From assembly GCA_043228905.1 (NCBI GenBank), contig JBHGNT010000014.1, positions 16,926,001 to 16,990,000 on the forward strand: a DNA stretch of 64,000 bases. The letters are read 5' to 3'. Every line of letters starts with the position of its first letter. Positions within the stretch are counted from its first letter, which is position 1. Positions 1 to 64,000 of this stretch are shown in pieces. The translations under genes and the position numbers were made by a program. The notes beneath the pieces are model-generated. The model searched no databases and was not told the DNA's origin. It saw only the letters and a list, made by a program, of their open reading frames with translations. The stretch comes from Azolla caroliniana (taxonomy: Eukaryota > Plantae > Polypodiophyta).

Positions 1-663
1 CTTAAGTATTACATGTGGTGCATGCTAACCATGTCACTCATTTTAGCACTCATGGATGAGAATTTACATGTAAAAGTACAATGATAGAAATATAATTTTA
101 ACTAAATACCATGGCTTAATGGTAAGCCATTTGACTCCTAACTTGGAGGTGCAAGGTTCGAATCCATACTTGCCCTCCTTGTATATGTATATATTTTTAT
201 ATATTTATTTTATCTAGTCGCCGGTTCGCCGGATACCGTCGCCGGATGCCGACGCCGACGCCGGATCACCGGCTCCATCTCCGGTCCGGTTTTGGTTGGC
301 CAAAACCCTTTTCGAGTAGCTAGCCACCTCCACTCTTAGTTCAAGTTACCTTTAACTCTCTATGCTCCACACATAGACACAAAGATAATATCTTTTGCTC
401 CACCTTATATATGATGAGAGCCGTATTTGTCGTGCCTATGTGGGATATCTCACAATTTTCTCTTTTCTTTTCACAAACTTTATACCCTCATATCTTGACA
501 TTTAGTTGTACGTTTCTCGTGTAATAAAGTGCATTCGAAACCTCCATCATTTTGTACTTAGATATTAAAAATGTTATCTTCACAATTATTTTATTACGTG
601 ATTCATACTCGATTTTGTACGTTTTATGGGATTTTCACACTATTGCCGAAAATCTTCACGACA
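1..663 (-). mobile_element. LTR-like unit A1 (cut by window edge), Ty3/gypsy-related
   Basis: Near-identical to 932-1593. Ends in ...CTTCACGACA, i.e. TGTCGTGAAG on the minus strand, the same 5' terminus as the LTRs at 3566(-) and 4268(+). Confidence 0.65.
105..176 (+). promoter_or_regulatory. tRNA-derived Pol III A/B-box cassette inside LTR A1 (not a functional tRNA)
   Basis: A box TGGCTTAATGG 112-122 and B box GGTTCGAATCC 155-165 at tRNA-like spacing. D-arm-like stem TGGCTT/AAGCCA; acceptor and anticodon stems do not pair. T5 run at 194-198. Confidence 0.6.
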
Positions 664-1593
664 GCATAAGCTTTAGCGAGAAAGTACTTAAGATAGATTG
701 GGAAAGAGAGAAGTTGAGATCACACAATTGAGAGAGATTGATTGAAGTTTTAACTTTAGATTTAAGAAACAAGTTACACGATCAATTTGATAACGAATTT
801 CTTCCTCTTAATTTTCATACAAAAAAACCGTGTTTTTTCTCCTCCCCCTTCCCTCTTTTATAGATGCTCTCATGCATATGATGCATGTGAGGGTACAAGA
901 CATGCATAAATTACATGTTTGCCATTTGGCGCTTATGTATTACATGTGGTGCATGATAACCATGTCACTCATTTTAGCTCTCATGTATGAGAATTTACAT
1001 GTAAAAGTACAATGATAGAAATATAATTTTAACTAAATAGCATGGCTTAATGGTAAGCCAATTGACTCCTAACTTGGATGTGCAAGGTTCGAATCCTTAC
1101 TTGCCCTTCTTGTATATGTAAATATGTATATATATTTATATATTTATTTATCAAGTCGTCGGACGCCGGTTCGCCGGATGCCGTCAATTACCGTTGCCGT
1201 CGCCGGATTGGCGCCGGATCACCAGCTCCATCGCCGGTCCGATTTTGGTTGGCCAAAACCCTTTACGAGTAGCTAGCCCACCTCCACTCTTAGTTCAAGT
1301 TACCTTTAACTCTCTATGCTCCACCTTATATATGATGAGAGCTGTATTTGTCGTGCCTATGTGGGATATCTCACAATTTTCTCTTTTCCTTTTACAAACT
1401 TTATACCCTCATATCTTGACATTTAGTTGTACGTTTCTCGTGTAATAAAGTGCATTCGAAACCTCCATCATTTTGTACTTAGATATCAAATCTATTTAAA
1501 ATGTTATCTTCACAATTATTGTACTACGTGATTCATACTCGATTTCGTACGTTTTATGGGATTTTCACACTATTGCCGAAAATCTTCACGACA
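664..1593 (-). mobile_element. LTR-like unit A2, inserted into the RT region of element B
   Basis: 5' end TGTCGTGAAG at 1593 on minus; TATA-like CTATAAAAGAGGG near 851-863 on minus. It interrupts the RT ORF of element B at ...SSVT. Confidence 0.65.
1036..1107 (+). promoter_or_regulatory. tRNA-derived Pol III A/B-box cassette inside LTR A2
   Basis: A box TGGCTTAATGG 1043-1053, B box GGTTCGAATCC 1086-1096; T-arm AAGG-TTCGAAT-CCTT. Confidence 0.6.
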
Positions 1594-2653
1594 CCGTGAC
1601 CGAGCTATAGTCGTTCTTCATCGCAGAGATGGCTTCTACCTTAGCCGGAGACGGTTTCCGGCCGTACGGCCTGCATAGGTGTCCGACGACCATGATCTCT
1701 AATTGCCCGAAGGCCGACTTTCCCCCGGAGAAGGTGAGCCTCGCACTCTCCAACCTCTGCAGCACCTTCTCGCAGTCATCGATGTGCGCCGGCACGAATT
1801 TCCGGCATCCGTCCGGTCCGATCATCTCGTCCCTTTCCTCCACCGCGCATCCCTTGATCGGGACATCGTCCAAAAACGGCATGGTGATGTCCGGGATACA
1901 ATCCCTCAGCACTTTGTTCATTGTGTTCACCATGTGAGCCACCGAGTTCGTCCCTCCTTGCGGCAGGGTACACATTTGTACTAGGCCGAGAGGAGTTCGC
2001 ATTGTCGTGATGTCCCTGCTCTCTACGGCAAGCTGGAACTGATCGTACCCCGAGTAGAGATCACCGACAGAGTAAATCGACCTTCCGACGAAGGCCTCCG
2101 CGAACTCGTCTATTGTCGGTCCGATTCCTGCGTTTCGAATGGTCACCTTGTTGACCGGTTGCAGGTCTTGAATAAAGCGCAGCGTGCCGTCCTTCTTCGG
2201 CACGGTAAACCACCGATTCGAGTATGGGGCACTCGACGGTTCGAGGATTCCCATCTCGACCTTTTGCTTTAACAACTCCATCAGCTTCGGGATGTGAGCT
2301 CTAGGTACTGGAATCGGTTTGAGACTCCACGGCACATGCGGTACCGTGAATATCACCATCGGTTCCACGACTGTCGGGTCTACGCACCCGATCTCCTCCG
2401 GTGACAATGCAAAAGCCTTCCCGTGCCTTCCGAGCATTCCCCGAAAACGGTCCTCTTCCGCCAGCAGTAGGAAGCCGCCCCCACCGATTTTGAGCTCGCA
2501 CAGCGTTATGTCGGTGAACGTGTGTCCTATGTGGGCCGGATTTCGTAAACTCGGGTCCGACGCAACCCCCTTTATTCGCAACTCGCTGCCCTCCGACAAG
2601 GGAGCCGCGATTGGCCTCACCTTCCGGTCCACAGTCATGTACCTCGTGTCCAC
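1594..2653 (-). pseudogene. Ty3/gypsy reverse transcriptase (truncated pol fragment)
   Basis: Motifs ILEPSSAPYSNRWFTVPKKDGTLRFIQDLQPVN, DLYSGYDQ, LPQGGTNS, PFLDD; cut off by the insertion at 1593. Confidence 0.9.
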
Positions 2654-2847
2654 CCGGGCCGTCCGATCCGACTCGAGCCCTCTACTGAAGTCCGCGATGA
2701 CTTCAACCGGCCGATCGTACCGACAACCGCCTCGATAGCCCTATCAAGGGCGTCGGTGCCTTCGCGCGCACTCACTATAAGGTCTACAGCCGAAGCCACG
2801 GCTTCTGCAAGGTCCGACCCCCTCATCTTCTACTCCTCTGCCGCCTG

Positions 2848-2865
2848 TTCACGTCGGGTTCACCA
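2848..2865 (-). other. Primer-binding site complementary to tRNA-Trp 3' end
   Basis: Minus strand TGGTGAACCCGACGTGAA, 4 nt after the LTR end. Matches the plant tRNA-Trp(CCA) 3' end ...TTCACGTCGGGTTCACCA (recalled sequence). Confidence 0.85.
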
Positions 2866-2869
2866 AATA

Positions 2870-3566
2870 TGTCACATTGTTACGCGCGTGCGCGGAGAAC
2901 AAGGCGGGACCACTAGGGTCTTGGACCGAGGAATAGGTGAGGAAGAAAAAGAGAGAGAGAGAGAGAGAGAGAGACGCTCACTCACGTATAGACAAAGAAG
3001 CGCACGGGGACGCGTCACAACAACACAGGAGACGCGAGTTGAGAACACTAGAGTGTGTATCTAAATATAGGCATGTATTTGTATGTATGCAGACGAATCG
3101 AACGGTTACAGCCGACCAGGTCGGCGAGGTGGATGCCGACGCCTGATCACCCATGCACATAGGAGAGCAAGATGGAGATTCTGCCGAAAGCACACGGGCG
3201 TTCCACGGAGCAGAATCAGCCTCCTGAGAGCCTGCGCAAAAGAAAGCTATGGAGAACGACAGAGAAGAAGAGCTCGGTCCCAGTCTGACAGCACTTCGTT
3301 CCCTCTAGCGCGCGATCCCCTTCTCTCCCCCGTCTCCCTCTCTTTTATAGCTCAAGGAGGGAGGCCGTTTCACCCGTTTACATCACATTAACTCTCTATC
3401 CTTTCGGACAGAGATACTCCTCGATTTACCTTATAGAATATTGCTACCTAGGATTTAACCTTTGTGCCTACCTATCTACTATACGACAAGGGACGTGCCC
3501 ACGTGTAAGGGCCGGTTCACACACACTATACACTGTTTGCGCCTGGGGACGGTTTTCTTCACGACA
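2870..3566 (-). repeat. 5' LTR of element B (~697 bp)
   Basis: TG...CA termini, TATA-like CTATAAAAGAG near 3340-3350 on minus. U5 motif GGTCCAAGACCCTAGTGGTCCCGCC resembles that of LTR C. Confidence 0.8.
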
Positions 3567-5032
3567 GCGGGGCCACGGCCCAATCATAAAAGCCATTGTA
3601 CGTGCATGCGAAGGATGAGTCGACGACTAGCCGAGGTTGCTCCCTTACGCGCTATGGGTGGACAGGACTACCCACAGTTCAGTGACAAGGTACATGTCGG
3701 CGGAACTAATGTTTGGACAGAAACCCATCATGCCAGTAGAGCGGACGATCACATCGTGGACGGCGATCGATTGGGCCAACGAAATGAGCCGAGAAGAATT
3801 GCTTGCGGCCCGAATCCGGCAACTCGAGTGAAGGCCAGAAGACGTGGAGTGGGCCACGGCAAGGGTGAAAGAAGCGAGAATCCGGAGCAAGGCCTAGTTC
3901 GATCGGACACACTAGCTCCGGCCAAGGAAGATCGAGGAAGGCGATTGGGTGTTAGTCTACGACAGTAGCCTCGACAACCAACATAGGTCTACGCGTAAGT
4001 TCGCAAAGCGATGGTTCGGGCCATACGTGGTAATTAGCATCAACGATAACGCGATGTATAATCTCGCGGAGCTCGACGGGACCCGAATGATGACTCCAGT
4101 GTCCGGGAAGCGGATAAAGGCCTTCTAAAGACGGAGTGAGGCAGAACCGGACCAAGAGGCAAAAGGACCAGTTCAGAAGGGAAGGACGAGTAGCAGATGG
4201 CCCAGAATCCCTCACTAAAAACGTTGCCCGGCACATAACAGAGTATGTGCAGTTTAGTGGGGGTGGATGTCGTGAAAATTCCGGGCCATTGGTAGAAACA
4301 ATGTGAAACGTGTGGGAGCACTGGTGTGCACGAGTGCACACCCCTAGTGAATTAGATAGTGTAAGTACTAGGCATAGGAAAAAGGGGGTGTACTAGGTAG
4401 TTAAAGCATTAATAGGGATTCAGACATCGCGTAAGTAGGGAGAGTTATGAGGAGAGCGAATCAGGGGGGAGAATTTAGGAAGTTAAAGTGACAAGGCCAT
4501 GAATGCTTTGTAAAGGTCGCTCCTTGTGCTATAAAAGGGGCGACCCTCGACTGTTTTTGGGGATGTCATTTTTTTTCGAGAGAGGAGAAAGGAAACAGAG
4601 ACTAAAGAAGACGAGGAGTCCTACGACGTGACACCGGAAGGCGCTTCCCCTGCTCGCATCAGACGCCTGAGTGCTCCCTACCAGGGGATCGACCTTCTGT
4701 GTGCCCACTCATCTCCGTGTCTGACTACTCTAGAGCCTACGCTCGAACACCGGCACTGATCCGGTTGTAATCACCCACAGCGCCACGCGCATATATTGAT
4801 TAATAGAAGCTTATCCACTTACCGCTAGTTATTCTTAGCATATCTGTCTGCGCCTGTGTCTACGCACGTTCCTCTTACACTATCTCTCTCGTTTCACTAA
4901 TCTTTTCTGTTTAAACCACAGTCTCAAGGCCCACGTAAACCACAGACTCTTCCTCCTCATTTCTTGGTTCCTTGGTTCAAGACCCCCGTGGTCCTGCCCA
5001 ACTTCTACGCATCCGCGAGGATTTCCTCGACA
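3567..5032 (+). mobile_element. Ty3/gypsy element C: 3' end (integrase C-terminus, PPT, 3' LTR)
   Basis: From 3567 reads RGHGPIIKA...LLPYALWVDRTTHSSVT...ELMFGQKP...GDWVLVYD...KFAKRWFGPYVV with several stops. PPT AGTGGGGGTGGA 4256-4267; LTR 4268-5032 (TGTCGTGAAA...CCTCGACA). Confidence 0.85.
4268..5032 (+). repeat. 3' LTR of element C (~765 bp)
   Basis: Follows the PPT directly; TG...CA ends; TATAAAA near 4530. Confidence 0.8.
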
Positions 5033-16086: not shown

Positions 16087-19000
16087 TCAGATGCATTCAT
16101 AATTCAAAAGCTTTTCCGCATCTTCTTTCATGCCAGCAGTAGCATAAATGTCAGCCATAACTACATAAGCTTCAGCACATGTATTATCTAATCTCAAAAT
16201 CTCATCAAAAGCCAACCTCCCAAGCTTCAGATTCCCCCATTTCCTGCAAGCACCCAACATTCCAAGCCAGATGGTAGGATGATCAAACGAAGGCATTTCC
16301 TTGATCAACGACATTGCTTTCTGAAAGCGCCCTTCATAACCAAAAAGCACCACCATACAAGCATGATGCTCTAACTTTGGAATAATGCCATTCTCTTTAC
16401 TCATATTACAGAAAAGGATCCAAGCCTCGTTAACGAGACCCGAGTGACTACAGGCACTCAATATACTCAGGAATGTGACCTCATCGGGATAGAGACCTTC
16501 AATTTGCATTTCTTCCAGACATTTCAATGCTTCCTGACCTTGACCTTGATCTGAATACCCTGAAATAAGTGCATTCCATGAAACTACATCTCGGACATGA
16601 AACTCTTCAAGCAATTGCTGTGCTTTTGTTATCACTCCACATTTGGCGTACATATCAACTAGAGCATTTCCAAGCACAATGTCAGCTAGGAGACCCCTAT
16701 TCCTTATCTCATCATGAACTAGTTTTCCTTTTTCTATGGCTCCTATGTTACCACATGCCTTCAAGATGCATACGTAGGTAACAACATCAGGGCAAAGGCT
16801 CTCACTGCACATTTGCTCGAAACAATTCAATGCTTCATACAATTGCCCTTGTTTGGTATATTCTGTAACCAATGCATTCCAAGGAACTGCATCTTGAATA
16901 GGTAACTCTCCAAGCATCTGTTGTGCTTTGCCAAGTACGCCACATTTAGCATACATGTCTACCAAAGCATTGCCAAGCACATCAGCGGTCCCAATTAACC
17001 CCCTATCCACCATTTCTTCATGAATTTGTTTGCCCTTGTCTATAGCTCTTGCACTGCCACAAACCTTTAACATGCAAATGAAGGTCACTACATCAGGAGA
17101 CAAACCATCGCTTTGCAACTCTTCATAACAGTCGAACACTTTTTTACATTGCCCCTGTTGAGCATATGCTGCAATTAATGCATTCCAAGAGACTATATCA
17201 CGAACAAGAAGCTCTTTAAGCACTTCTCTCGCTTTTGAAAGCATTCCACACATGGCATACATATTCACTAGTGCAGTGCCGAGAACAATATCTTGCTCTA
17301 GTAAACCTCTACTTACTATCTTTGTATGAATTTGTTTGCCCTTGTCTATATTTCCAGTGCTGCCACAAGCCTCCAACATGTGAACAAACGTAACCATATC
17401 TGGAGAAAGACCCTCACTTTCCATCTGTTCAAATAAGTTAAGTGCTTCAACACCTTGCCCATTTTGGGCATATGCTGCAATTACAATAGACCAAGAAACT
17501 GTGTCTCGATCTGGGAGCTCTTCAAGAACTGCTTTTGCTTTTGTAAGCATGCTGCATTTCACATACATATCCACCAAAGCATTGCCGAGTGCAATATCTT
17601 TCTCCAGAAGATCCCTATTGTTTTTAATCTCTTCATGGATTAGTTTGCCTTTGGCTATAGCTCTTGTACTACCACAGACCTTCAACATACAAATGAAGGT
17701 TACTATATCAGGATATAGTCCCTCATTTTGCATCTGATCATATAAATCCAGTGCATCATAAGATTGTCCTTGTTGACTGAACCCAGAAATCAGTGTATTA
17801 AAAGAAACAACATCTCGAAAAGGAAGCGCTTCAAACACCTTTAGTGCTTTTGATGGCATACCACATTTGACATACATGTCCATTACAGCATTTCCAAGCA
17901 CAACATCCTTCTCCAAGAAGCCCTTATTTATGATCTCATCATGAATTTGTTTGCCTTTGTCTATAGCTGCTATGCTACCACATGCTTTCAAAATGCAGAT
18001 GAAGGAAACCTCATCTGGAGAGATGCCCTCACTCTGCATATGTTCAAAACAGCTTAATGCTTGATGATCTTGGCTGTGTTGTGTATATGCCACAATCAAT
18101 GCATTCCATGACACAACATCTCGAATAGGGAGTTCCTGAAGCACATTCTCTGCTTCTGTAAGCACACCACATTTGGCATACATATCCACCAAGGCATTGC
18201 CAAGAACAATATCCTTCTTTAGCAAGCCACTCCTCGTGATCCTTTCATGAATTTGTTTGCCCATTTCCATAGTTCTTGTATTACCACATACTTTCAACAT
18301 GCAAATGAATGTGACAGAACTAGGAGAGATGCCCTCAGTTTGCATCATGTCAAAACATTTTAATGCTTCATGGCATCGATCTTGTTGGGTGTACCCTGAA
18401 ATTAATGCATTCCAAGAGACTACATCTCGATTAGGAAGCTGTTCAAGAACTTCGTGTGCTTTTCTAAGTGTCCCACATTTTACATACATATCCAATAATG
18501 CCGTACCAAGAACTACATTCTTCTCCAAGAGGCCCTTCCTCACAATTTCCTCATGAATATGTTGCCCTTTCTCTATAGCTCCTCTGCTCCCACAAGCCTT
18601 CAAGATATGCATGAAGATGGCTTCATTTGGAGATAGACCTTCACACTGCATACGTTCGAAACAGCCAAGTGCTGCATGACCTTGTTCCTGTTGGGCATAT
18701 CCTGCAATGACTGCAGACCATGACGCTACATCTTGAACACATAGCTCCTCAAGAATCTCTTGAGCTTTTGCAAGCATACCACATTTAGCGTACATGTCCA
18801 CCAAAGACGTTCCAATCACAATATCTTTCTCTATGAACCTCCTACTTACAATCTCCTTGTGAATTCTTTTGCCCTCATCTATCGCTCCTATGCTGCCACA
18901 AGCCTTTAAGATGCAAATGAGGGTTATGGAGTCAGGAGATAAACCCTCACTTTTCATTTGCTCAAAACAAGCCAATGTTTCATGGCATTGCCCTTGTTGC

Positions 19001-20115
19001 GCATACCCTGCAATAAGTGCATTCCACGAGACTATATCTCGGACAGGGAGCTCTTTGAGAACTTTCTGTGCATCAATAAGTGCTCCACATTTAGCATACA
19101 TATCTACTAAGGCATTGCCAAGCATGATATTATCTGTCTCTAGCAATCCCCTTCTAACAATCTCCGCATGCATTTGTCTTCCTTTTTCGATAGATCTCAT
19201 GGTCTTCAAGATGCAAATGAAGGTGATGGCATCGGGAGAAAGCCCCTCATTTTGCATCCTTTCAAAACAATCCAATGCTTTGTGCCCTTGAATATCTTGA
19301 CCATACCCTCCAATGACTGAATTCCATGAGGCTACATCACGAAGAGGAAGCTCTTCAAGCACTTCATTCGCTTCACTGAATGCCCCACATTTTACATACA
19401 TATCCACCAAAGCATTACCAAGCACAACATCTTTCTTCAACAAGCTCCTATTCATTATCTTTCCATGAAGTTGTTTGCCCTTGTCTATGGCTCCTAATCT
19501 TCCACAAGCCTTCAAGATGCAAGTGAGAGTTACTTCATCAGGAAAGAGTCCTTCACTTTGCATTTGTTCATAACAACTCACTGCATCGTGAGCTTGGCCA
19601 TGGTGCGCATATCCTCCTATCAATGCGTTCCAACAAAAAACATTCTGAAAACAAGATTCTTCTAACACATCATGTGCTTTTGCAAGCATGCCACATTTGG
19701 CATACATGTTAATTAGCGCACAAACAAGATGAGGGATCTTCTCAAGTAAACCCTTTTTGAGAACATAAGAATGTAATCTAATGCCTTTGTCGATATCCCT
19801 CTTCTTAGAACAAGACTTAAGTGACTCCACAAAATCATAACGGAAACACTTTTCATCATCATTATCCTGCTCCGCACGCTTTCGTTGCAGCTTTTTGTTT
19901 AGAATTTTATTTAATTCTCCATGCATTGATAGAAGAGATGGGTTTCTCCTTAGTTCTTCATAAACCCAACAAGGAATGTACAGTCCATCAATCCACAAAA
20001 ACCCAGAAGTGTGCTTATTCCTAAAGTCTGATCGTGTAGAGTTAATCTGTATTGCCAAAGTACATACATCCACATCTCTATGGAGAGATGTACCAAAATA
20101 TGGTAACTCCGGCAC
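16087..20115 (-). CDS. PLS-class pentatricopeptide repeat protein, E subclass (no DYW); putative organellar RNA-editing specificity factor
   Basis: 1342-codon ORF with 11 xALVDMYxKCG S-type motifs in L-S-P triplets (~35 motifs), then L2/S2, E1 (IWLGMLGACRKWGNLKLG) and E2 (AYVVMADIYA). The ORF call starts at GTG; first in-frame ATG is at 19926, so the start is uncertain. Confidence 0.93.
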   Translation of the reverse strand: MPELPYFGTSLHRDVDVCTLAIQINSTRSDFRNKHTSGFLWIDGLYIPCWVYEELRRNPSLLSMHGELNKILNKKLQRKRAEQDNDDEKCFRYDFVESLKSCSKKRDIDKGIRLHSYVLKKGLLEKIPHLVCALINMYAKCGMLAKAHDVLEESCFQNVFCWNALIGGYAHHGQAHDAVSCYEQMQSEGLFPDEVTLTCILKACGRLGAIDKGKQLHGKIMNRSLLKKDVVLGNALVDMYVKCGAFSEANEVLEELPLRDVASWNSVIGGYGQDIQGHKALDCFERMQNEGLSPDAITFICILKTMRSIEKGRQMHAEIVRRGLLETDNIMLGNALVDMYAKCGALIDAQKVLKELPVRDIVSWNALIAGYAQQGQCHETLACFEQMKSEGLSPDSITLICILKACGSIGAIDEGKRIHKEIVSRRFIEKDIVIGTSLVDMYAKCGMLAKAQEILEELCVQDVASWSAVIAGYAQQEQGHAALGCFERMQCEGLSPNEAIFMHILKACGSRGAIEKGQHIHEEIVRKGLLEKNVVLGTALLDMYVKCGTLRKAHEVLEQLPNRDVVSWNALISGYTQQDRCHEALKCFDMMQTEGISPSSVTFICMLKVCGNTRTMEMGKQIHERITRSGLLKKDIVLGNALVDMYAKCGVLTEAENVLQELPIRDVVSWNALIVAYTQHSQDHQALSCFEHMQSEGISPDEVSFICILKACGSIAAIDKGKQIHDEIINKGFLEKDVVLGNAVMDMYVKCGMPSKALKVFEALPFRDVVSFNTLISGFSQQGQSYDALDLYDQMQNEGLYPDIVTFICMLKVCGSTRAIAKGKLIHEEIKNNRDLLEKDIALGNALVDMYVKCSMLTKAKAVLEELPDRDTVSWSIVIAAYAQNGQGVEALNLFEQMESEGLSPDMVTFVHMLEACGSTGNIDKGKQIHTKIVSRGLLEQDIVLGTALVNMYAMCGMLSKAREVLKELLVRDIVSWNALIAAYAQQGQCKKVFDCYEELQSDGLSPDVVTFICMLKVCGSARAIDKGKQIHEEMVDRGLIGTADVLGNALVDMYAKCGVLGKAQQMLGELPIQDAVPWNALVTEYTKQGQLYEALNCFEQMCSESLCPDVVTYVCILKACGNIGAIEKGKLVHDEIRNRGLLADIVLGNALVDMYAKCGVITKAQQLLEEFHVRDVVSWNALISGYSDQGQGQEALKCLEEMQIEGLYPDEVTFLSILSACSHSGLVNEAWILFCNMSKENGIIPKLEHHACMVVLFGYEGRFQKAMSLIKEMPSFDHPTIWLGMLGACRKWGNLKLGRLAFDEILRLDNTCAEAYVVMADIYATAGMKEDAEKLLNYECI

Positions 20116-20495
20116 TCGCTTTGGGGGATCACAGAGGAGAATTCGGGAAGATTTGTATCATTTTCTTGAATGCCCACCATGGCATGTCAGGAGTCGATCT
20201 TTTTTGAAGCACGGAGAGAGATTGTGTGGAATACAAGGTACCTCTTTGCTACTAAAAGAGATCGACTGTGTTCAGGTTCCCAAATTATGCAAATGGGGAG
20301 CTTCGAAGCAAGTCATTTGTTCATACATCAACAAAAAAACGAAAGGAAAATAATAATAATAATCCATAACCAAATGCCTTGCAGAGGGAGGCACCACTAA
20401 ATGTAGTTGGAAGAAGAAGCAGAAGGAAGAAGAAAGGTTTGATACGAAATTACAGTAAGCCCCAATTGATATATTAATATTGTGTGTGATACAAC

Positions 20496-20936
20496 TAACA
20501 ATAGGCAACAGTTCGGTTCGGTTCGGCTCGAGTGGGTCAAAACCGAACCGTTTAAATGTTTAGAAACCTGAACTGAACCTAATCGAACCACGAAACCGTT
20601 AAGCCGAACCATTAAAAAAATTCAAACTGTTAAACCAGTAAAACCCCGGTTTCGTGGTTCGGTTTCAATTTTCAACTTAGGTCAAATTTTAAAATTTTAA
20701 AATATTTCATTATTTAAATTTTCAAAATTTTAAAGATTTTCATAAAATGTGAGAATAAGGCATGACAATGAAAAGATTGTTTAAAAACATTTTTTTTTAA
20801 TTTAAAAGTAAAAAACCATTTAAACCGCGGTTTCTAACTGTTGAAACCGAACCGTTAAAAAACATTGAACCGTTAAAACCGTTAAGCTGCAATTTTGCCG
20901 TTTGGTTCGGTTCAAACCGACCATTGCCGATTGTTA
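20496..20936. mobile_element. Non-autonomous hAT-type DNA transposon (MITE), 441 bp
   Basis: 8-bp TSD GATACAAC at 20488-20495 and 20937-20944; imperfect TIRs TAACAATAGGCAA / TTGCCGATTGTTA; many subterminal AACCG/CGGTT repeats. Confidence 0.88.
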
Positions 20937-23840
20937 GATACAACATGGTTTGCCCCATTATTAGAGTTCAAATTGGATCTAACCTTTACATAAGGGGGGA
21001 GATATATATGTAGATAGATAGATACTAGAATTGGATTCAAGCTTTTTGAGAGTATTAAATACATCAAATTCAACTTGATACTATTCGAAAAGAGTTGAGA
21101 TGATCAATCGAACATGAACACGAACTCATGAACACATTTTGCATGCAAATGGAAATATGCCATGCAATCATTTTTTATTTGTTAGTTCATATTGTGCTCG
21201 TGTTACTTCTACGAGAATCATCCATGTTGAGATGTTGGGCTCTACAAAAGATGGTGAAGTCGTGAATAATATGGGAAATAGTGTGAAAGTGTGTCCGTTC
21301 ATGCGGATACCATCCATGTATTGTTCACTCTATTGCTCCTTAATTCATTCTTTGCTATTCACATATAGATTTTGAGGGCATTAAAGTTGAACATGCGTTC
21401 ATAATCTCTTGTTACTTTTACAATGTTAGTTTTACTAATTGCATGTATGGCTTCAAAATATTCTACATTGCTAATCATTTTATTCTTGAGAAACGAATTT
21501 ACTTTTATAACCAAAATTATACCTCGTTAAATTAATCATGGCATGTGCTTCATAGCCCATGAGTCATTAATGGTAGTTCTTAACTTGGTCAAAATGTAAG
21601 GATGTACAAATATGATAGTGTTCACTACTGGCATTGAACACTTCCCCTTGTACCCTTGCTTATATGGCTACCTTCTCCACTTGGGTACTATTAAGGCGAA
21701 TTCATAAAGACCATGATAAACAACACATAATGGGAAACTAACATACATAGTATGAAAGTCGATGAGCTTGTTCATGATAGGCATGATTTGTAAGGGTTGT
21801 GATGAACAAATTTGCATAAAGTAGAACGACCATACATACATATGATGAAGAGTTTGGCCAATTGGTTGAATGCTAGACATAATTGAGTGAGGTCATACAC
21901 AACTTTCTCCTATTCCATGTTTCGCATTCTATGGCTCAATTGTTCTGCACTCGAAACACTCAATCTTTTAAATAGGCAAATGACAGTAGTAGTATTTGAA
22001 TATTTTGATTTGAATGTCTCCATCAAATTTTGCACAATATATTTCTTAGATCCATGACATTTTTGTTGCACTATTAATAATACTCATCTCCCATATCAAG
22101 AACAGGAGAAATATCATCTGTTAAGACGAAACAAATGAACAAAATTGGTCATTACGAGGAAGTTTTGAAGGAACCCACAACAGATGAATCAACCACAAGT
22201 CACAAACATTAACGCTTACTTGACAAAATGATCATATAACGAGTGGTTATTTCCAAGCTGCCATAGGAAAGCCAACTGAAAGTCAACAAAAGTAACAATC
22301 GTTCAATGTTATTCACCATTTGATCCATCTTTTAGTGAATGGATTACGATAAGCACGAGATATCTGAATTCTACTTGACGCTCTCATTTTCCGTTACATG
22401 GTGTATCATTTTGGATATCTGCTATTTTGGGAATGCCATTACAATGAGCATGATATATATTCATAATCTACTTGATGCGCTCATTTTTAGTGCTCTGTAT
22501 CATTTTGGATATCTTCTCCTTCAGAATAGAAAGGGTATAAAAGCAACACATAGAGACAATATCCATACCTCCTATATAAACTCCTATGCAAATTCAGATC
22601 ACTGGGGAATTCAGGATTGAGCCAGAGTTTTTTTTTTCAGTTCTATCCTTACTGAACTGGTATTCATCCAAATTCAATCATTTCTCATGAAATCTCACAC
22701 TCAGACTCTTCATGGATGAATTATAAATAAATAATACCCAGGTTGCAAATCACTCAACCTACTAGAGGTAGAGCAAGCCCTTCATGTAAACTTACTGCAT
22801 TTAAAGGCTCCCAATGTAAAAACAAAACCGATCCCCATATTCTAACAACCTTTGCATTAAACAATTCATAACAATGTTCTAAAGCAAGTCCCCAACTCCC
22901 TGACAAGAGTCATCCCAACCAAAACTTTTTCCAAACAAACTTTGGCCTCCCATCACGATATCCGGTCAGTTAGAAGTCCCATTATGTTAATTCCCCCATA
23001 AACTCTGTTTTTGCTTCACTGAATATCAAGAGTAACATATTTTCCATCATATAACACCTTCAGTAGACATAGATTCAAGCTTCTTTGCAAGTGATTTAAG
23101 AATTGCCCACCAAACTAGAAGGCTTTCAAGTAGGACCTTTTCACTGTCTAATTTCCACAACTAAAAATCCCTTTTCAAGCTTTCTCAGATTGAGATCAGC
23201 AAATTTCATGAAACAGAAAGGGTCAAAATGAAGACCTCCAACAATTCAGAAGCTACAAATTACTCTCAAATTGCTACTGAAACCCTTGCAAATCAGTATT
23301 GCAAATATCTATATCACCTACACTGATCATAAAACAGTTCTCCAATGAGGAGATAATTTCCCAAAGTGATTCAACCAAATGAAAATCGTAAACTGGTCCT
23401 TCTAACAGTTCGAAGACAAGTTTACCCTCAAATTTACTATGTAATACCCATTTCCCAATCTTCGTCACAATCGACTGGTTAGAATCACTCTTTGATGGAA
23501 AATTTCATTCCATTGTAACATGACAAAGGAAAAGGTTTAAAAGTAGGTCTTTAAACAATTGCAGAACTAAATCACCCTCCAATCTGGTAACTAAAATACC
23601 AATTTCCAAGAGTTGTGGCCATTAGCAAAATCAACTTCAAACATGAAGATTCGTTGGCAGACAAAAAATCGATTCAATTTGAAACTAGAACTTCTATCCT
23701 TGAAGAATATTTGAATTTACATAATAAAAACAAGAGAAGGGGGGAATCAAGCAAATTTTAGAGCCAATCTCCCCCCCTTTTTTTTCTTACCTCCCAACTT
23801 TGTTTCCAGCAGATAACATCATGAATTATTTTATCCAAAT

Positions 23841-30665: not shown

Positions 30666-33600
30666 ACAAGGAAGGGAACGCAAACAATGGGAGAAGCTAT
30701 GTGTCCACCTTAACCTGCGAGACATCTGGCATTCTGCCAACTTCCAACGAAAAAGGGACTCTCTCCTATTCTCCCGATCAGACGAGCGGAATAGTGGACC
30801 CACCCTTTCTCGCATTGACTGCATTTATGTGGGGGAGGCTTTAGAAGCGAAGGGAGGGTGGTGTCACATAACTCCAAGCACGACTTTCTTTTACCATTAC
30901 CCGGTAGCTGGTCATTTTCAATTGCACCGAAAATGGGGCCCATTCCAAACTCGCATCCCACACACTATTTACACACTTATAGACGTGAAGGACCAACTAT
31001 CCAACCAATGGTCATTACCCGTCAATGGCTCATCAGCATCGGACAAACTTTTAGCTAATTAACAAGAGCCTCTACTCTCCTACATGAGATTGTCAAGACC
31101 AGACACAAGGATGCTCAGGAGAAGCGACAGAGGACAAAACGGGGACTAATAGCCTTACAACGCCTCCAACAGAGATACCCATCCTGTAGTTGGATCGCAG
31201 GACAAGTCGCCACGGCCAAACAGGAACTTAGCATGGCAGAAAAGGCAATATATGACATGGAGTTTCATGGCAGCATGGCGCGATGGATTCGAGTAGGGGA
31301 CAAAACCACAAAGGAATTCTTCCGCTCCAAAGGCCCGAGGCACGCAAGAACTGTGATGCGCAACCTCAACCGGGAGGATGGAACAACCACTGAGGATGGC
31401 GACGAAATGAGGAATATTGCCACAAGGTATTATAGCCGCCTACTTACCGAAGACATGATAGCTACAGAGGAAGACATAAGCGATGATATTATCCTCCAAA
31501 GCATACCCGGGAAAGTCACACCGGAAATGAATACCTGGCTTGTGCGTCCTCTATCAATCATTGAGATATAGGAGGCCCTCACTGATTTAGATGCTGAGAG
31601 TTGCCCCGGAATTGACGGTCTCACCCCGCACTTTTTCACATGCCTCTGGGGCACTATTAAAGAAGACCTCCTCCAGGCATATGAGGAGATCATCACCTCT
31701 GGAAGCATGCCGGAGGAATTTGGACAGGGGATGATACATCTCATTCCTAAAAGTGGTGGGAATGCCAACGACATTCACAAGTGGCAGCCCATTACTCTTC
31801 TCAATACTATCTATAAGTTGCTCGCAAAAATCGTGGCACGCCGTTTAACTCCACTTCTTCCTCAACTCATTCATCCGTCACAGACAAGTTTCGTTAGAAA
31901 TCGGAGCATCCTAGACAACCTCTTCTCATTTTGGGAAGCAGTAGCCCTTGCCAAGCAGACCAACAAGAAGGTAGCGGTGGTGCTACTAGATTTTGAGAAA
32001 GCCTATGATAGGGTATGTTGGAACTTTCTAGAAAGTGTGATGAGGAAACTCGGCTTTCAAGAGGCATGGATCAAAGGCATTGCAGGATTTTATAGGAATG
32101 GCAGCAGTTGTGTTTCGCTGGCAGGTGAAAGGGGCCCCTTTTTCCGAATATCCCGCTCTGTACGGCAGGGATGTCCACTAGCTCCATCCTTATTTCTATT
32201 ATACGCCGAAGCACTCTCTTGCTTTCTCAACTCGCGGCATCTCAACCTACATGGTCTTCCCATACCTCATTCTTACCAAAGCATCCTGGATATAGAATTT
32301 GCAGATGACACAGCAGTCTACCTGCAAGGGGACCTGGAAAACCTCCAAAAGCTAGAAAGTGGGCTAGTTTTATTTTGCAAGCGATCCAACGCCATGATCA
32401 ATTGGCACAAATCCTGTGCAATATGGCTTTCTCAGGAAACACATCCGGCGTGGCACCCTCACCCCGCTTTCAAATGGATCAATCAAGGAGCGAGCACCAA
32501 ATATTTGGGCTTCCAAATTGGCTTCAACATACCGCCGGAGACTATGATTGCACCCGTTATCCTCTCCATTCGACAAAAGTTGATACATTAGAGCTCTAAA
32601 AAATTGTCGCTAGCAGGTCGCATCATAGTGGCAAATAAGGTACTCCTCGCAACAGCATGGTACAGTCTATCATGTTGGACAATGTCCAAGGACAGTATAC
32701 ATCAGATTCAACGACTGGTCCGCAACTACATTTGGTCTGGTAAGGAAGACCATGTAGCTCGCGCCAAGGTTGCGTGGCCTATACTCACAACGCCTAAGTT
32801 GAGGGGGGGATTGGGTCTTATTGATCCCCTTTCACAATCGAAAGCCTTACTTGCCAAATTTGTGGTGCGAGGACTCCAACCAGGAAATGATTATTGGAAA
32901 ATGCTACTGAGATTACGTTTCGCTTACTTTAAGCCACGAAAAGGGGTCGATTGGGCCCCCCAAACGGGATGGATTCTAAACATGGATCTCAAACCTAGTT
33001 TCTCCCGCCATTTGGAGGACAGATTCAGTGCATCCATGTGGAAGGCATGGTGTGACATTCGTCGGGGGCTCCAGTGTGATCAACCGAGATCCGAACCTGC
33101 CTGGCTCAGTCAACGTATTCTATGGAACCCATGTCTCAAGGATGAATCTAATCAACTACTGGGATCACGTAAGGGGTTGTCATGGGGATACATTGCAGAA
33201 GGTCCAGGCAAAAGTATTGAATGTTGGCGACGGTTTATGTCAATGCCACTACAAGATCAAGCGAACATACTCCATGGAATCAGGGGCGGATGGACTATGA
33301 GATCGGAAATCATTAACGCGTTACTGATTAGGGACTCTGCTATTCAAAGGACGACAATGGAGAAATGGATAGGCCACGAGGAGGAGGGCTCTCTGATCCC
33401 AAGAGGTAGGGGATCACCAAACACGCTCGAAGGCCATGAAGTGAGAGACACTGCGACACCCACACAGAATAACGCCATTTGAGTACTCGCGTACACTGGT
33501 CATAAATGGATTGTAGATCCTGATTCGATTAAAGTACAACCCGATTGGCATATATGTACTCATGAAAACACATGGCTGCGTAAGGTCAGTTGGGACCCTT

Positions 33601-34510
33601 TGCAATGGACATGGCGTGATCCCTACGCGGGGCAAGGAAGTAAACCCATCCCTTTCTTCCAATTCACAACTAGATTGGGTCGCCACATTCTAGCTGCTCA
33701 AGCCGCCCGAGAACCGGCTACTGCGAAGGTCTGGCACACATTTCAAGTTCCCTCCGCAATAATCACCAAGTTTTGGCAGAAAATCTGGAAGCAACAACAC
33801 GCGAGGCGAATTACCACTTTCCAATGGTTGTTAATACATAAGGCCCTACCGGTGGGAGCATGGCAACGTGGGAACCTTAACTCTCCGAATTGTGTAGAGT
33901 GCCCACATGCAGTAGAATCCATACGACACGCTCTGTGGGACTGCCCAACGTCCCATAGAATATGGCGGGGGGTTGGCCGCTTGTTGCAATTATGCCAGGT
34001 GCAAGGTTCAATCGAGTGGGGAAATATATGTTGGCTATCATGGCAGGCTGCAATTGGCCGATACGAGCATCAGGAGGAGGGGATGACTTTGGTGATAAAA
34101 GCACAAGAGGTTCTTTTCTCCTCCAGCGACAATGTCCACTATTTTCCTCTTAATGACAAATCTCAAGAGGTGTTGGAATTGGTCAGCCCAATAACCCTTT
34201 GGATTCTATGGAAACAACGATGTAGGCGAGTCTTCTCCAACCAAACCACCCATCCAACAAGGTTACTGCAAGAGATATGGAGTGAAATTGTAGCCACTCT
34301 GAAAAGCCAATATGATGGCCTTAAAGGTGGCTCCGAGGGAGTTGAAAGACAACGTATAGCCTTCATCCAACAATGGTCGTCCTCTCCCTTTCTTGAGTCA
34401 GTGGGCTTCCACATTAGATGGAACTATCACGTCCCTTTAGGAATTTGTACATAATCGCCTCATTTGTAAAATTTTATAACTAATGGAAGGAGTTTTTTTT
34501 TTGGAAAAAA
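30666..34510 (+). mobile_element. 5'-truncated L1-clade LINE (ORF2 with stops and frameshifts)
   Basis: TSD AAAAGTCTCT at 30656-30665 and 34511-34520, with an A tail. Endonuclease end SRIDCIYV..HYPV; RT LLDFEKAYDRV, SVRQGCPLAPSLF, FADDT, KYLG; C-terminal CxxC..ES..H....C zinc knuckle. Confidence 0.93.
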
Positions 34511-60800: not shown

Positions 60801-62699
60801 ATACCGACAATTATGCTTGCTGTTCATGGAATGTGGAGTTTCTTCACATGTTTGAGATTTCATGAAAGTGGAGTCTTTGCTACCCATGCGCAATTCCTGA
60901 AACATGAAGGTTCTTGTATTCTTGCGATCGCAAAAAATGGAGAATCAAGTGCAAGACTTTTCTATATTCTTGAGAAATTTAAAATGGAGAAGATTAGTCA
61001 ACCAAGAGAAGATTCTGACACGAGAAGATTCCTCTATCAAATGCAAAGTTTCTCATAATGGAAAGAAGGGAGGGGAGGAGAGAGAGAGAGATTCCATACA
61101 TATAAATATCTGCTTGCCAAAAATCAGTATCTTAAAAGTTTTCATCTTTGTCGTATTAGCTATGAAGAGCTGCATCCCAAAGGCAATATAATGCCTAAAG
61201 CTCTGTTGTCTATTACTCCTTAAAGTGTACAAAAGTCTTACTCAAGTTCTGTTATGTATAGAGAATATTTCTTTTTTATGTGAGCACAGATTGTAAATCA
61301 AAGTATAAATGCATCATCACTCAAGGCAATGTATAAGATCTTCATCCGAAATATCATGAGGCAATGCATAAGAGCATCATCATAAATATGAGAATGCAAT
61401 GTATTGGAATTATCAGAAATATCGTAAGGCTACATACAGAAACTGTTACAAATATCATGAAAAGTTGCTGTGAAGCTCTATGTACAAGAAGCTGCTATGT
61501 ATGTTATTCTGCTGAACATTTGTGTGATTGGTAAAGAACATGGGACAATGTTCCCATTACTCGAAGAAATGTCATTGGTGTACTTGAGCAGTACGAGGAA
61601 CCACCAGTAGTAGACTATATCGGATGTGAAGTGAAAACTTGGAGCGCTTGGATCGAGTCGGTTCAAATAAGAGTCAAGATTGTTGGAGTAGAGAAACCTT
61701 GGGAACCAAGAAGTTCGGAGCAATGGAACTTCCATATGTGAAAATTGTGATAGAAACAACTACAAAAAACACATCATGTCTCTTTGGTTGATCTTGCATC
61801 ATCTTCCCACATCAAGGCAACATGTCTAAGTATGCTCAAGGATAATGTTATGAGGCAAGCTAGAAAATGAGGTTGAATTTAACCCCGTAGAGGCAAAATG
61901 AATATGAGGATATAAATAGTTTCTCTCACATTGGATAATGGAAGAACATGGCTCCGTCCCATTGGTAGTAACCTGGCTCACTCACTATAAGGGACTGTTT
62001 TTACATAGGAGGATGGGTTCATCATTATGTCCATTTGACCATTTTAAGTCGTAGTTTTGGAGAAATAATACATTTGAAGGGGACAATATATTTGTCCATG
62101 TACTTAATTAAAATATGCATAGGTAGGATACGTGGAACAAAGGACAATGATTGTAGAATGCATGGACATGTTTTATGTGTGGAGCAAACTCCCATGAATA
62201 AGACTAATCACATAGATGGATCACTCAAAAGTTGTATTCAATTATGTCAACATTATGCTCAAACGATAATAGTAGACTCAATGCAATCTTCCTACAATTA
62301 TATGTTACAAATAAATAGGTGGTTGGAAATTTTGATTTGTCACTTACAACCAAATATTGACATTGAATGCGAAGGCTTGTCAAGTGCAGCTCATTATGTG
62401 GATTTATTAATATGTTGCGTTTCGAATTGTAAAGGTTAGTTCATGCATGAAGGTTCAACGCCTATGTGTTGGAAAAATCAAGGATTTACATAATAGTTTC
62501 CCTCGTTTGATGAGATTGTAGCTAGCTATTTTAGTTATACCGTTGTTGTAGTGTGAATCAGACACTATGTGAAACATACCAAAGCCTTGGTGGTTCCCAC
62601 CCGATTCACACAACGATTCGGAGCCGAAAGGCATGACACCGGTGAGAACCATATAAAGAGACAAATTTGTAAATAGAAGAAAATATTGTTACATGCATA

Positions 62700-62766
62700 G
62701 GGCAGGATTCAAACCCTGTACCTCCATGTTAACGATTTTTAAGCCTTACCATTATACTAGCGTATT
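62700..62766 (-). promoter_or_regulatory. tRNA-derived Pol III A/B-box cassette inside LTR D (antisense to the LTR)
   Basis: Minus strand A box TAGTATAATGG (62759-62749) and B box GGTTTGAATCC (62715-62705), 44 nt start to start; T-arm-like CAGG...CCTG; TTTT ~20 nt downstream. Confidence 0.55.
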
Positions 62767-63254
62767 ATGAATTTTAAAGTTATACTAAACTTTATCCCAT
62801 GTAAATATTCTAGACATGCATGGTACAAAAAGTTATTCATGCATAGACACTCGAGTTAAAAAGAAAAGATGAGATAGAAAGCTAATCATGCACATGCAAT
62901 GTGCATGAAAACTAAAGATAGGAAAAGCATGATGCTTGCATGTGATAAACTTAGACTCTTCCAACACTATATAAGGAAGAGAGAAAGATGTATAGAGGTT
63001 GTTGATTATTTTATAAGGGTTGATTAATATAATATAATCGTGAATCCACGAGTTTGCTAACTAATTTTCTCTCTTAATTTGAGTACTCACTAATACACTA
63101 TACTCGTGGGATTCACGAGTTTTTCATATCTTTCTTTCTTACAATATATTTCATATTCTTAATTGCCTTAGAATTTTCTTTCCTCCTAGTCCAAAACCCC
63201 AACGATTCCCACCTGACTCACACAACGATCTGGAGCCGTAAGGCACGACACAAG

Positions 63255-63272
63255 TGGTGAACCCGACGTGAA
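63255..63272 (+). other. Primer-binding site for tRNA-Trp
   Basis: TGGTGAACCCGACGTGAA, identical to the PBS of element B. Confidence 0.88.
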
Positions 63273-63288: not shown

Positions 63289-64000
63289 ATGGAAAATCAA
63301 CCGGAGGCTAACAACATGATGATGATGTTCGAGCGGATTCTTCAAGAACAACGTGCGATGTTAGAGATAGCGGCAGCAGTAGAGCGGCTTGTGCAACGGA
63401 TCGGGCAATTCAACGGGAAGGACGTATCGTGCTATCTTCGGGACTACAAGGCGGAAATGATACGATGCGGGATTTTGGAAGGACTGCAAGTGACATCCTT
63501 CAACCGGGTTGCTACCGATGGGCTTCAAGCAAGTATCCACGTGCTACGACAACAAAATCCGAAGTGGGAAGCATTTGAAGAGGCGTTAAAGACCACGTTC
63601 GCTATCAAGGACTCCTCCAAGGCAACACGGAGAGGATTCAAGGATTGGGTAGAAACATCGGACAAGGGGATGAAGGTCCTTGATGTGTTTTCGGCATTCG
63701 AAAGTCGGTTCGGGAGGTTGTCTGCGAGAGATCAAGCTATCCTCGCACCGGACAAAGTTATCATGTTCTTACGAGCCGTAGATGTCCGGGACCGGAAGGA
63801 TCTTGGAGTGCTTCTAGAGGACACGACTACCGAGAGTGGCCTCACTGAAACATGGGAAAGCGTGTGGGATATCGTCACGCGATACACAAAGAGGGGGCAA
63901 TGGCTTGCCAACGAAGAAAAGAGGGTTTCAGAACCGATTCCGAAACCGAGATCCGGATCGAAAGACCATCAACCGCGGGCTCGAGAAGCTACGACTAAGA
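63289..64000 (+). CDS. Retrotransposon gag, N-terminal part (open to the window end)
   Basis: MENQPEANNMMMMFERILQEQ...IGQFNGKDVSCYLRDYKAEMIRCG...WEAFEEALK...FSAFESRFGRL; no stop seen before 64000; directly follows the PBS. Confidence 0.85.
   Translation, partial: MENQPEANNMMMMFERILQEQRAMLEIAAAVERLVQRIGQFNGKDVSCYLRDYKAEMIRCGILEGLQVTSFNRVATDGLQASIHVLRQQNPKWEAFEEALKTTFAIKDSSKATRRGFKDWVETSDKGMKVLDVFSAFESRFGRLSARDQAILAPDKVIMFLRAVDVRDRKDLGVLLEDTTTESGLTETWESVWDIVTRYTKRGQWLANEEKRVSEPIPKPRSGSKDHQPRAREATTK

What the first reader, a model, noticed from the sequence alone, without database searches (positions are those of the whole stretch)
105..1107. LTRs carrying an antisense tRNA-derived Pol III cassette (family A)
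Seen: both A copies have perfect A (TGGCTTAATGG) and B (GGTTCGAATCC) boxes at tRNA spacing. D- and T-arm stems are kept, acceptor and anticodon stems are lost, and there is a CTCCTAA (Arg-CCT-like) loop. The cassette lies in U3, upstream of the TATA, pointing against LTR transcription; copy 1 has a T5 terminator ~30 nt later (~90-nt RNA). Known precedent: Cassandra TRIM LTRs carry 5S-derived Pol III promoters, and TFIIIC-bound B boxes can act as chromatin barriers. Inference: a tRNA-type equivalent giving an antisense small RNA or protection from silencing.
Basis: partly seen in the sequence, partly recalled or inferred. Interest (0 to 1): 0.7.

Follow-up and report, generated by a model that had tools for sequence, protein, structure and literature searches.

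The report
Backward tRNA promoter inside retrotransposon LTRs
A family of plant jumping genes carries, inside its end repeats, a worn piece of a tRNA gene that keeps both tRNA-promoter boxes and points away from the element's own promoter, where it likely works as a protein docking site that would help shield that promoter from silencing; the tRNA pieces I found described in such repeats belong to tiny gene-less elements, and the plant example faces forwards.

Summary
Observation mostly confirmed. Both copies are LTRs of a gag-coding, Phygy-like Gypsy family (tRNA-Trp-type PBS, 4-bp NCGN target). A1 is nested in A2's U5; they are not one element's two ends. The A/B-box cassette lies antisense in U3, 179 nt from the TATA box. 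It is family-wide, not a lone SINE insertion. New here: a second LTR family in the window (D, 62.6-63.25 kb; Gag only 35% identical) has a cassette in the same place and orientation, 67-73% identical from A box to B box with near-random flanks. Two other LTR families (B, C) lack it. Not upheld: the Arg-CCT loop (CTT or GTT in relatives), a kept T stem, and a fixed ~90-nt RNA (a close terminator in 3 of 7 copies that could be read that far). Within family A, extra box conservation is inconclusive. No RNA or occupancy data. Best reading (0.4): a captured type-2 Pol III promoter kept as a TFIIIC site or barrier beside the Pol II promoter. Closest known: Helenus, which is non-autonomous and sense in its plant example. 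The scan found Helenus-type cassettes before in other genomes; none of the notes shown describes this antisense form.

The parts
1..663 (-). LTR A1 (family A), U3 part; runs off the left edge of the window; inserted in the U5 of A2
   Evidence: 86% identical to A2 over 695 columns with gaps, 25 substitutions in 628 paired columns; starts with TG at 663; L003 shows the ~78 nt of U5 that A2 lacks here
664..1593 (-). LTR A2 (family A), U3-R-U5 with the end of U5 cut off by A1; inserted in the RT gene of element C
   Evidence: RT runs on across 1594 in other copies; abuts an NCGN 4-mer at 1594-1597
112..165 (+). tRNA-derived cassette in A1: A box 112-122, B box 155-165, antisense to the LTR
   Evidence: 59% mean identity to 38 phage tRNA cores versus 45% to shuffles
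1043..1096 (+). tRNA-derived cassette in A2: A box 1043-1053, B box 1086-1096
145..178 (+). predicted 10-bp non-tRNA hairpin holding the B box in its 13-nt loop (1076-1109 in A2, where it is weakened)
   Evidence: 93% of cells paired in 9 sequences; z -3.7 for A1, -1.0 for A2
194..198 (+). T5 run, possible Pol III terminator of A1 only
856..862 (-). TATA box of LTR A2 (Pol II direction towards lower coordinates)
   Evidence: sequence; same context in LTR C and in L001-L006
864..1042 (-). CATG-rich conserved block between cassette and TATA (likely Pol II enhancer/core promoter)
   Evidence: segment 851-990 differs from A2 at only 5-12 of 122-140 positions in 5 metagenome copies; function inferred
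1113..1245 (.). AT-rich run then CG-dense variable-length tract on the far side of the cassette
1586..2740 (-). RT frame of element C, interrupted by A2 at 1593/1594
   Evidence: PF00078; named relatives from Riccia, Adiantum, Calypogeia
2870..3566 (-). LTR C, followed by a PBS at 2865; no A/B cassette (internal control)
4268..5032 (+). LTR B, preceded by a PPT nearly identical to that of family A; no A/B cassette (internal control)
62643..63250 (+). LTR D (5' part missing or interrupted), TATA at 62968-62974
62705..62759 (-). related cassette in LTR D, antisense in U3, 207 nt from the TATA; A box 62749-62759, B box 62705-62715 with C-to-T at the CpG
63255..63272 (+). primer-binding site of element D (same first 17 nt as in C, L002, L003)
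   Evidence: tRNA-Trp identity recalled, in line with the Phygy table
63289..64000 (+). gag of element D, open to the window edge
   Evidence: 35% identity over 201 aa to family-A Gag from L003

Best explanation
The LTRs of two distantly related Phygy-like Gypsy families carry a tRNA-derived A-box/B-box cassette antisense in U3, about 180-210 nt upstream of the TATA box; it was likely captured once and is likely kept as a type-2 Pol III promoter element that would bind TFIIIC back-to-back with the element's Pol II promoter. Shown: position, orientation, tRNA likeness, family-wide presence, and retention in families whose Gag proteins are 35% identical. Inferred: TFIIIC/TFIIIB occupancy would keep a nucleosome-poor patch and act as a barrier between the CG-dense distal U3 tract (and flanking DNA) and the CATG-rich enhancer/TATA block, and could stop read-in transcription at the 5' LTR. 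Any antisense RNA (80-320 nt depending on where the first T run falls) would be a by-product. Selection would act only on the active master copies; old copies lose the B-box CpG.
For: A versus D: identity 35-38 of 54 from A box to B box, but 3-6 of 13 and 4-6 of 14 in the flanks. Cassette local score 43 versus 14.2 +/- 2.7, reached by 0 of 500 shuffles, while R/U5 is at chance (338 of 500). All A-box differences between A and D fall in degenerate positions of the box pattern used. Spacing 32-33 nt in 9 of 9 copies (the 6 metagenome copies were selected by a pattern that bounds it). In contigs of three runs the only listed A-box variant is A>G at the R position, and no B-box variant is listed (40 of 42 rows shown). 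The anticodon, acceptor stem and terminator drift while the boxes stay, the pattern of a promoter rather than an RNA product. The majority allele at 1030 is C (78-93% of depth), which puts a CAA at -6 to -4 from the would-be tRNA start; PMC3082873 (passages) places a plant CAA motif at -7 to -3. Extra-transcriptional effects of Pol III complexes on neighbouring Pol II transcription are reported in yeast (PMC4228148, abstract).
Against: No occupancy, chromatin or stranded RNA data. Within family A the cassette is no more conserved than the adjacent TATA-CATG block. The variable-site test is p = 0.23 for one run, 0.019 for three runs pooled, and 0.17 if the two hidden rows fall in the boxes. The B-box CpG has decayed in D, L003 and L005, at least as often as other CpGs (2 of 7 versus 21 of 140), so it does not protect itself in old copies. 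LTRs B and C lack the cassette although B shares family A's PPT, so it is dispensable in this lineage. A and D could be independent captures: 23 of 654 different-isotype and 8 of 49 same-isotype phage tRNA pairs reach the A1-D identity. No TATA motif lies at -34 to -29 (sequence), and D lacks the CAA. A TFIIIC roadblock in the 3' LTR could harm full-length transcription (inference).
Confidence: 0.4

Rival explanations
1. The cassette is a Pol III gene whose product matters: a short two-hairpin antisense RNA (about 80-95 nt) that pairs with U3 in the element's own RNA or acts in trans, much as foamy viruses make Pol III RNAs from U3.
For: A non-tRNA 10-bp hairpin around the B box is 93% paired, with 2 pairs changed on both sides; 7 of 500 shuffles reach it. 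Fold z-scores are -3.7, -3.0 and -3.7 for A1, L001 and L002. A T run follows the hairpin closely in A1, L003 and D, and 3 contigs of run X19 show a longer T run there. The spacer is also conserved between A and D (67% versus at most 56-61% to phage tRNA spacers), more than a bare promoter needs. Precedent: PMC7693620 (passages).
Against: No close terminator in A2, L001, L002 or L005. Both double changes come from the single sequence D, whose 3' side aligns just as well with a 5-nt gap. Fold z is only -1.0 for A2 and -0.7 for D, and the hairpin forms about as well on the opposite strand. The stems are short for Dicer-like processing (own knowledge).
Confidence: 0.22
2. The cassette is a relic of an old tRNA or SINE-head insertion that rides along inside a conserved promoter block, or has been re-used as part of the Pol II enhancer, with no Pol III role.
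For: Within family A it is embedded in, and no more conserved than, the TATA-CATG block. It is absent from LTRs B and C. The B-box CpG decays. Kojima notes that 'not a few LTRs' in Repbase hold tRNA-like pieces (PMC10886601).
Against: A-D similarity stops at the two box edges, while the CATG block itself is only weakly alignable between A and D (5 of 500 shuffles). With Gag at 35% identity, unconstrained non-coding DNA should be saturated (inference). A-box changes stay within the box pattern.
Confidence: 0.28
3. The antisense tRNA copy works in the element's RNA as a second, 3' primer-binding site that lets the primer tRNA bridge the two ends, as in Ty3 and Drosophila Gypsy.
For: The orientation is exactly what such a site needs. 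Ty3 has PBS segments in U3 that pair with the T and D arms (PMC5371799, passages); Drosophila Gypsy has a 3' PBS (PMC1635307, two sections).
Against: The primer's 3' end can be read from the PBS. The cassette matches it at only 4-7 of 15 positions (59-73) and 1-2 of 5 inferred T-stem positions. B and C lack the cassette, and C has the same PBS. The primer's D arm could not be tested.
Confidence: 0.1

Closest known systems
Helenus / TRIMp3 (Kojima 2024, PMC10886601; main text parts 1-4 of 6 read, supplement searched for the Selaginella entry)
   Same: tRNA-derived sequence inside the LTR; A and B boxes conserved; tRNA fold and anticodon not functional; proposed origin by SINE insertion into an LTR; one land-plant example.
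   Different: Helenus elements are 311-1263-bp non-coding TRIMs. The tRNA part is sense in the Selaginella consensus and is proposed to transcribe the element. Here the LTRs are about 1.0-1.2 kb, belong to gag-coding elements, keep a TATA box, and the cassette is antisense, so it cannot make the replication RNA.
Cassandra TRIM (as described in PMC10886601)
   Same: Small-RNA-gene-derived Pol III promoter in a plant LTR.
   Different: 5S-derived (type 1), non-autonomous, and transcribes the element from LTR to LTR.
Phygy clade of non-chromovirus Ty3/gypsy (Neumann et al. 2019, PMC6317226; passages and supplementary table read)
   Same: 4-bp NCGN target and tRNA-Trp-type PBS; RT relatives in seedless plants.
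   Different: No tRNA-like LTR segment was mentioned in the passages found ('tRNA-like' 0 hits). Phylogenetic placement against REXdb was not done.
Foamy virus U3 Pol III miRNA cassette (PMC7693620; abstract and passages)
   Same: A Pol III transcription unit in U3 of an autonomous LTR retroelement.
   Different: It makes dumbbell pri-miRNAs aimed at host genes. The passages read did not describe it as tRNA-derived; that it is sense to the LTR is recalled.
tDNA/ETC TFIIIC sites with extra-transcriptional effects in yeast (PMC4228148, abstract; heterochromatin-barrier role recalled)
   Same: A/B or B boxes next to Pol II promoters that block read-through and shape local chromatin: the 'works like' model.
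   Different: Host loci, shown by experiment; not carried by a retrotransposon; not shown in plants by anything I read.
Ty3 bipartite PBS and Drosophila Gypsy 3' PBS (PMC5371799 passages; PMC1635307 abstract and two sections)
   Same: tRNA-complementary sequence near the 3' end of the element RNA.
   Different: Short matches to the primer tRNA itself; here a 54-nt generic A/B-box unit whose 3' half does not match the primer.

Membership tests
Helenus (TRIMp3) | tRNA-derived sequence with conserved A and B boxes inside the LTR | tested here: met
Helenus (TRIMp3) | Short non-coding TRIM (screen limited to <1000 bp; families 311-1263 bp) | tested here: not met
   LTR alone is 1150-1190 bp in L003 and L001; PBS is followed by a gag frame of at least 500 codons in L003 and by gag in D
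Helenus (TRIMp3) | Promoter oriented to transcribe the element (sense) | tested here: not met
   antisense in A and D; sense in Helenus-1_SMo; the paper's text has no explicit statement on orientation
Phygy-like Ty3/gypsy | 4-bp TSD with NCGN preference | tested here: met
   4 of 5 window LTR junctions (A1 is the exception) and 3 of 3 metagenome junctions read NCGN; L001 is a solo LTR with a 4-bp TSD differing at one base; reference
Phygy-like Ty3/gypsy | PBS complementary to tRNA-Trp | tested here: inconclusive
   The same 17-nt PBS follows the LTR in C, D, L002 and L003; its assignment to tRNA-Trp is recalled, as no plant tRNA set was available
Phygy-like Ty3/gypsy | RT/RH/INT phylogeny within the Phygy clade; no chromodomain or aRH | not testable with these tools
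   No REXdb set; no complete element of family A held; named RT relatives are from liverworts and a fern
tRNA gene | Cloverleaf with acceptor stem | tested here: not met
   acceptor 3% paired; ARAGORN 0 genes
Free tRNA-derived SINE insertion | Present in only some LTR copies, own TSD and tail, more abundant than its flanks | tested here: not met
   Summed contig depth over the cassette lies within the range of flanking LTR bins in 3 of 3 DNA runs (X1: 263-358k versus 96-627k outside the low-complexity tract); only single low-depth contigs skip parts of it. An ancient SINE origin is not excluded.
Active type-2 Pol III promoter | TFIIIC/Pol III occupancy and a transcript | not testable with these tools
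   only contigs were available; no stranded reads
3' primer-binding site (Ty3/Gypsy type) | Complementarity to the primer tRNA | tested here: inconclusive
   not met for the T arm and acceptor side; D arm not testable

The most novel reading that the evidence does not exclude
A sub-lineage of autonomous Phygy-like Gypsy retrotransposons of seedless plants has domesticated a tRNA promoter as a built-in, back-to-back Pol III module in U3 that insulates its Pol II promoter from silencing or makes a self-regulating antisense RNA: a host-factor-based anti-silencing device encoded purely in cis.
Probability: 0.4. Interest if true: 0.75.

Novelty: new variant of a known kind. Interest (0 to 1): 0.52.

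Why it matters
How plant LTR retrotransposons keep their promoters active inside methylated repeat DNA is an open question. A tRNA-type promoter kept back-to-back with the LTR promoter would be a cis-encoded answer that borrows host TFIIIC. The same lineage offers sister families with the cassette (A, D) and without it (B, C), so the idea can be tested directly by comparing them and by mutating one box. It also contradicts an expectation in the Helenus paper that Pol III modules belong to the non-autonomous partners only, and it flags a source of false tRNA/SINE calls in these genomes.

Tried and rejected
No whole genome is held, so no genome-wide LTR survey was possible. ARAGORN and Rfam gave no tRNA call; the top weak Rfam hit (E 0.91) is below threshold and was not used. 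Expression: no RNA holder listed. X18 and X20 are only guessed RNA and gave 2 and 1 contigs, so they say nothing on strand or expression. Viral contigs gave nothing for gag D, RT or two cassette patterns. PBS-pattern scans meant to fetch a eukaryotic tRNA-Trp or more LTRs returned 6 viral and 120 prokaryotic stretches; none had a Gag/RT match or a relevant tRNA, so they are chance matches. One search used a structure string two columns out of register and was replaced. Phage BLAST hits are individually insignificant (E 0.6-8): tRNA genes lay under 16 of 25 records for A1, 17 of the 25 listed (of 162) for L002 and 0 of 6 for D; they were used only as leads for the tRNA control set (38 of 40 tRNAs kept, 2 lacked the T-loop motif). 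CpG protection of the B box was tested and not seen. Rejected readings: a two-LTR element A1+A2; a tandem satellite; a TRIM; Arg-CCT parentage; a fixed 90-nt RNA. A recalled report of a tRNA-like stretch in HIV-1 U3-R could not be retrieved and is not used as evidence. In the variable-site counts I dropped position 1079 (private to A2) and 957 (seen only in X20).

Full report
Setting. The window is land-plant DNA: it holds long PPR genes, a CAF1 gene and retroelement RTs. The named relatives of the RT beside the finding come from Riccia, Adiantum and Calypogeia, so the host is probably a seedless plant; I did not identify it. No whole genome is held. Extra copies came from public contigs and one metagenome scan.

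The observation. Both copies have the boxes as described, 32 nt apart on the + strand. A perfect A+B pair at 25-50 nt spacing occurs twice in 64 kb and in 0 of 60 Markov-resampled windows. The 54-nt core is as similar to 38 annotated phage tRNA cores (mean 59-61% for family A, 55% for D) as tRNAs of different isotype are to each other (59%), and well above shuffles (44-45%). It is therefore tRNA-derived. It is not a tRNA gene: ARAGORN finds nothing, and across 9 copies the acceptor stem is 3% paired, the D stem 81%, the anticodon stem 53% and the T stem 58%. The loop triplet is CCT in A1/A2, CTT in 6 of 6 metagenome copies and GTT in family D; run X19 has the C>T change that gives CTT in 70% of depth. 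The parent isotype cannot be named.

What the repeats are. A2 (664-1593) and A1 (1-663, open at the edge) are LTRs on the - strand. The six metagenome loci are 74-89% identical relatives. L001 is a 1190-bp solo LTR with a 4-bp target duplication. L003 has a polypurine tract before the LTR and a PBS plus a gag frame after it. This fixes the orientation independently of the TATA box and shows that family A belongs to a gag-coding element. A2 is inserted in the RT of another element (C): in other copies the RT runs on across 1594. A1 is inserted about 78 nt from the end of A2's U5. Four of 5 window junctions and 3 of 3 metagenome junctions read NCGN. A 4-bp NCGN target and a tRNA-Trp PBS are the listed features of Phygy (PMC6317226, supplementary table). 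That the PBS here is for tRNA-Trp is my recall.

Family-wide, not a stray SINE. 4255, 4495 and 2765 contigs of three DNA runs lay on 664-1680. Summed depth over the cassette bins (263-358 thousand in X1) lies within the range of other LTR bins (96-627 thousand, leaving out the low-complexity tract where laying fails); the tool warns that this is no copy number. Only single low-depth contigs skip parts of the cassette, and one of them carries a variant A box in the replaced stretch.

A second family. BLAST of the window against itself led to 62705-62759. There a 5' LTR (D), followed by the same PBS and an open gag, has a cassette on the opposite strand, 207 nt upstream of its TATA box versus 161-179 nt in family A. 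Gag of A (from L003) and of D are 35% identical over 201 residues. Between A and D the cassette scores 43 against 14.2 +/- 2.7 (0 of 500 shuffles). The TATA-to-A-box stretch is weakly similar (5 of 500), the immediate flanks are near chance (38 and 39 of 500) and R/U5 is at chance (338 of 500). Identity is 35-38 of 54 from A box to B box, 3-6 of 13 before and 4-6 of 14 after. All A-box differences fall in degenerate positions. Caveat: tRNAs resemble each other. A-D identity (67-73%) exceeds D's best match among 38 tRNAs (65%), and the spacers are 67% alike against at most 56-61%; but 23 of 654 different-isotype and 8 of 49 same-isotype pairs reach the A1-D value. One capture is favoured, not proven. 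LTRs B and C have no cassette although B's PPT is nearly identical to A's.

Within-family conservation is inconclusive. In one search (2% threshold, 40 of 42 rows shown) the only A-box variant is A>G at the R position and no variant is listed at 1080-1105; by the tool's tallies the two hidden rows are one G>T and one C>T. Variable sites: 1 of 22 box positions versus 17 of 133 others in X1 (p = 0.23), 1 of 22 versus 34 of 133 over three runs (p = 0.019), and p = 0.17 if both hidden rows lie in the boxes. Against the metagenome copies the cassette is no more conserved than the TATA-CATG block, though more than distal U3 in the most diverged copy (72 differences in 330 for L002). Those copies were selected by a pattern containing the B box and part of the A box, so they are no independent test of it. 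The B-box CpG has decayed in D, L003 and L005.

RNA product. A T run of 4 or more within 30 nt of the B box is present in A1, L003 and D. It is absent in A2, L001, L002 and L005, and L004 and L006 end before any such run; predicted lengths range from 79 to 322 nt. A non-tRNA 10-bp hairpin with the B box in its loop is 93% paired with two double changes, both from D. It folds with z of -3.0 to -3.7 in A1, L001 and L002, but -1.0 in A2 and -0.7 in D, and about as well on the opposite strand. This keeps the small-RNA reading alive without supporting a fixed 90-nt product.

Mechanism. I commit to a DNA-level role (0.4): TFIIIC, perhaps with TFIIIB, bound back-to-back with the Pol II promoter and between it and a CG-dense tract, acting as a barrier or open-chromatin patch. 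This step is inferred from anatomy and from yeast work (PMC4228148, abstract only; the barrier role is recalled). A CAA at -6 to -4 in the majority allele fits the plant tRNA upstream motif (PMC3082873, passages), but the TATA expected at -34 to -29 is missing and D has no CAA. The rivals are a relic or re-used enhancer (0.28), a functional antisense RNA (0.22) and a 3' primer-binding site (0.10). The last has good precedent (PMC5371799 passages; PMC1635307 abstract and two sections), but the cassette matches the primer end read from the PBS at only 4-7 of 15 positions.

Comparison and novelty. tRNA-derived LTR promoters are known as Helenus (PMC10886601; parts 1-4 of 6 read; supplement searched). 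That screen kept only TRIMs under 1000 bp, says that 'not a few LTRs' hold tRNA-like pieces, and expects autonomous partners to lack the Pol III module. The present case fails membership on size, coding capacity and orientation, and works differently. Pol III units in U3 are known from foamy viruses (PMC7693620, passages). My searches (mostly listings and abstract starts) turned up no description of an antisense tRNA-derived cassette in autonomous plant LTRs; the library lacks most subscription papers, Repbase was not available, and the two largest supplements of PMC6317226 could not be read. Earlier notes of this scan show Helenus-type elements in other genomes and a different tRNA-derived feature (at the PPT) in this genome; none of those shown (8 of 45, 8 of 55, 8 of 17) describes this cassette, and the sequence look-ups found nothing. 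Verdict: a real, family-wide feature, a new variant of a known kind, function untested; interest 0.52.

Noticed in passing
window 62579-62642: A 66-nt stretch 77% like the 3' end of LTR D ends in CA and abuts an NCGN 4-mer just outside D's cassette: a related element inserted into D's CG tract, or a tandem LTR junction. The CG-dense U3 tract may act as a landing pad for the lineage's own insertions.
   Followed up: partly
window 1-5032: Four nested Phygy-like pieces (A1 in A2, A2 in the RT of C, C beside B); C's internal part has lost gag between PBS and RT.
   Followed up: partly
L003 1579-2728: One LTR with a PPT on one side and PBS + gag on the other: tandem elements sharing an LTR, or a collapsed assembly.
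   Followed up: partly
window 1243-1262 and 289-308: A conserved short inverted repeat containing a T4 run in distal U3; it is the first T4 downstream of the cassette in A2 and could be the fallback Pol III stop.
   Followed up: no
window 35883-36078 and 37763-37958: 196-nt inverted repeats, 88% complementary, 1684 nt apart: probably a MULE-like or MITE-like DNA transposon.
   Followed up: no
window 34722-35192 (-): Weak Gag-like match (25% identity, E 2e-5) to family-A Gag; no cassette nearby.
   Followed up: no
window 16087-20157 (-) and 40836-44270 (+): Two long PPR frames, the first with a regular 306-nt period and an E motif.
   Followed up: no
window 31059-34454 (+): LINE-like RT with zf-RVT split over in-frame stops.
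   Followed up: no
window 20488-20937 and L001 1-170, 1830-2000: The same GGTTC/AACC-rich repeat with inverted ends (MITE-like) occurs in the window and around the solo LTR in L001.
   Followed up: no
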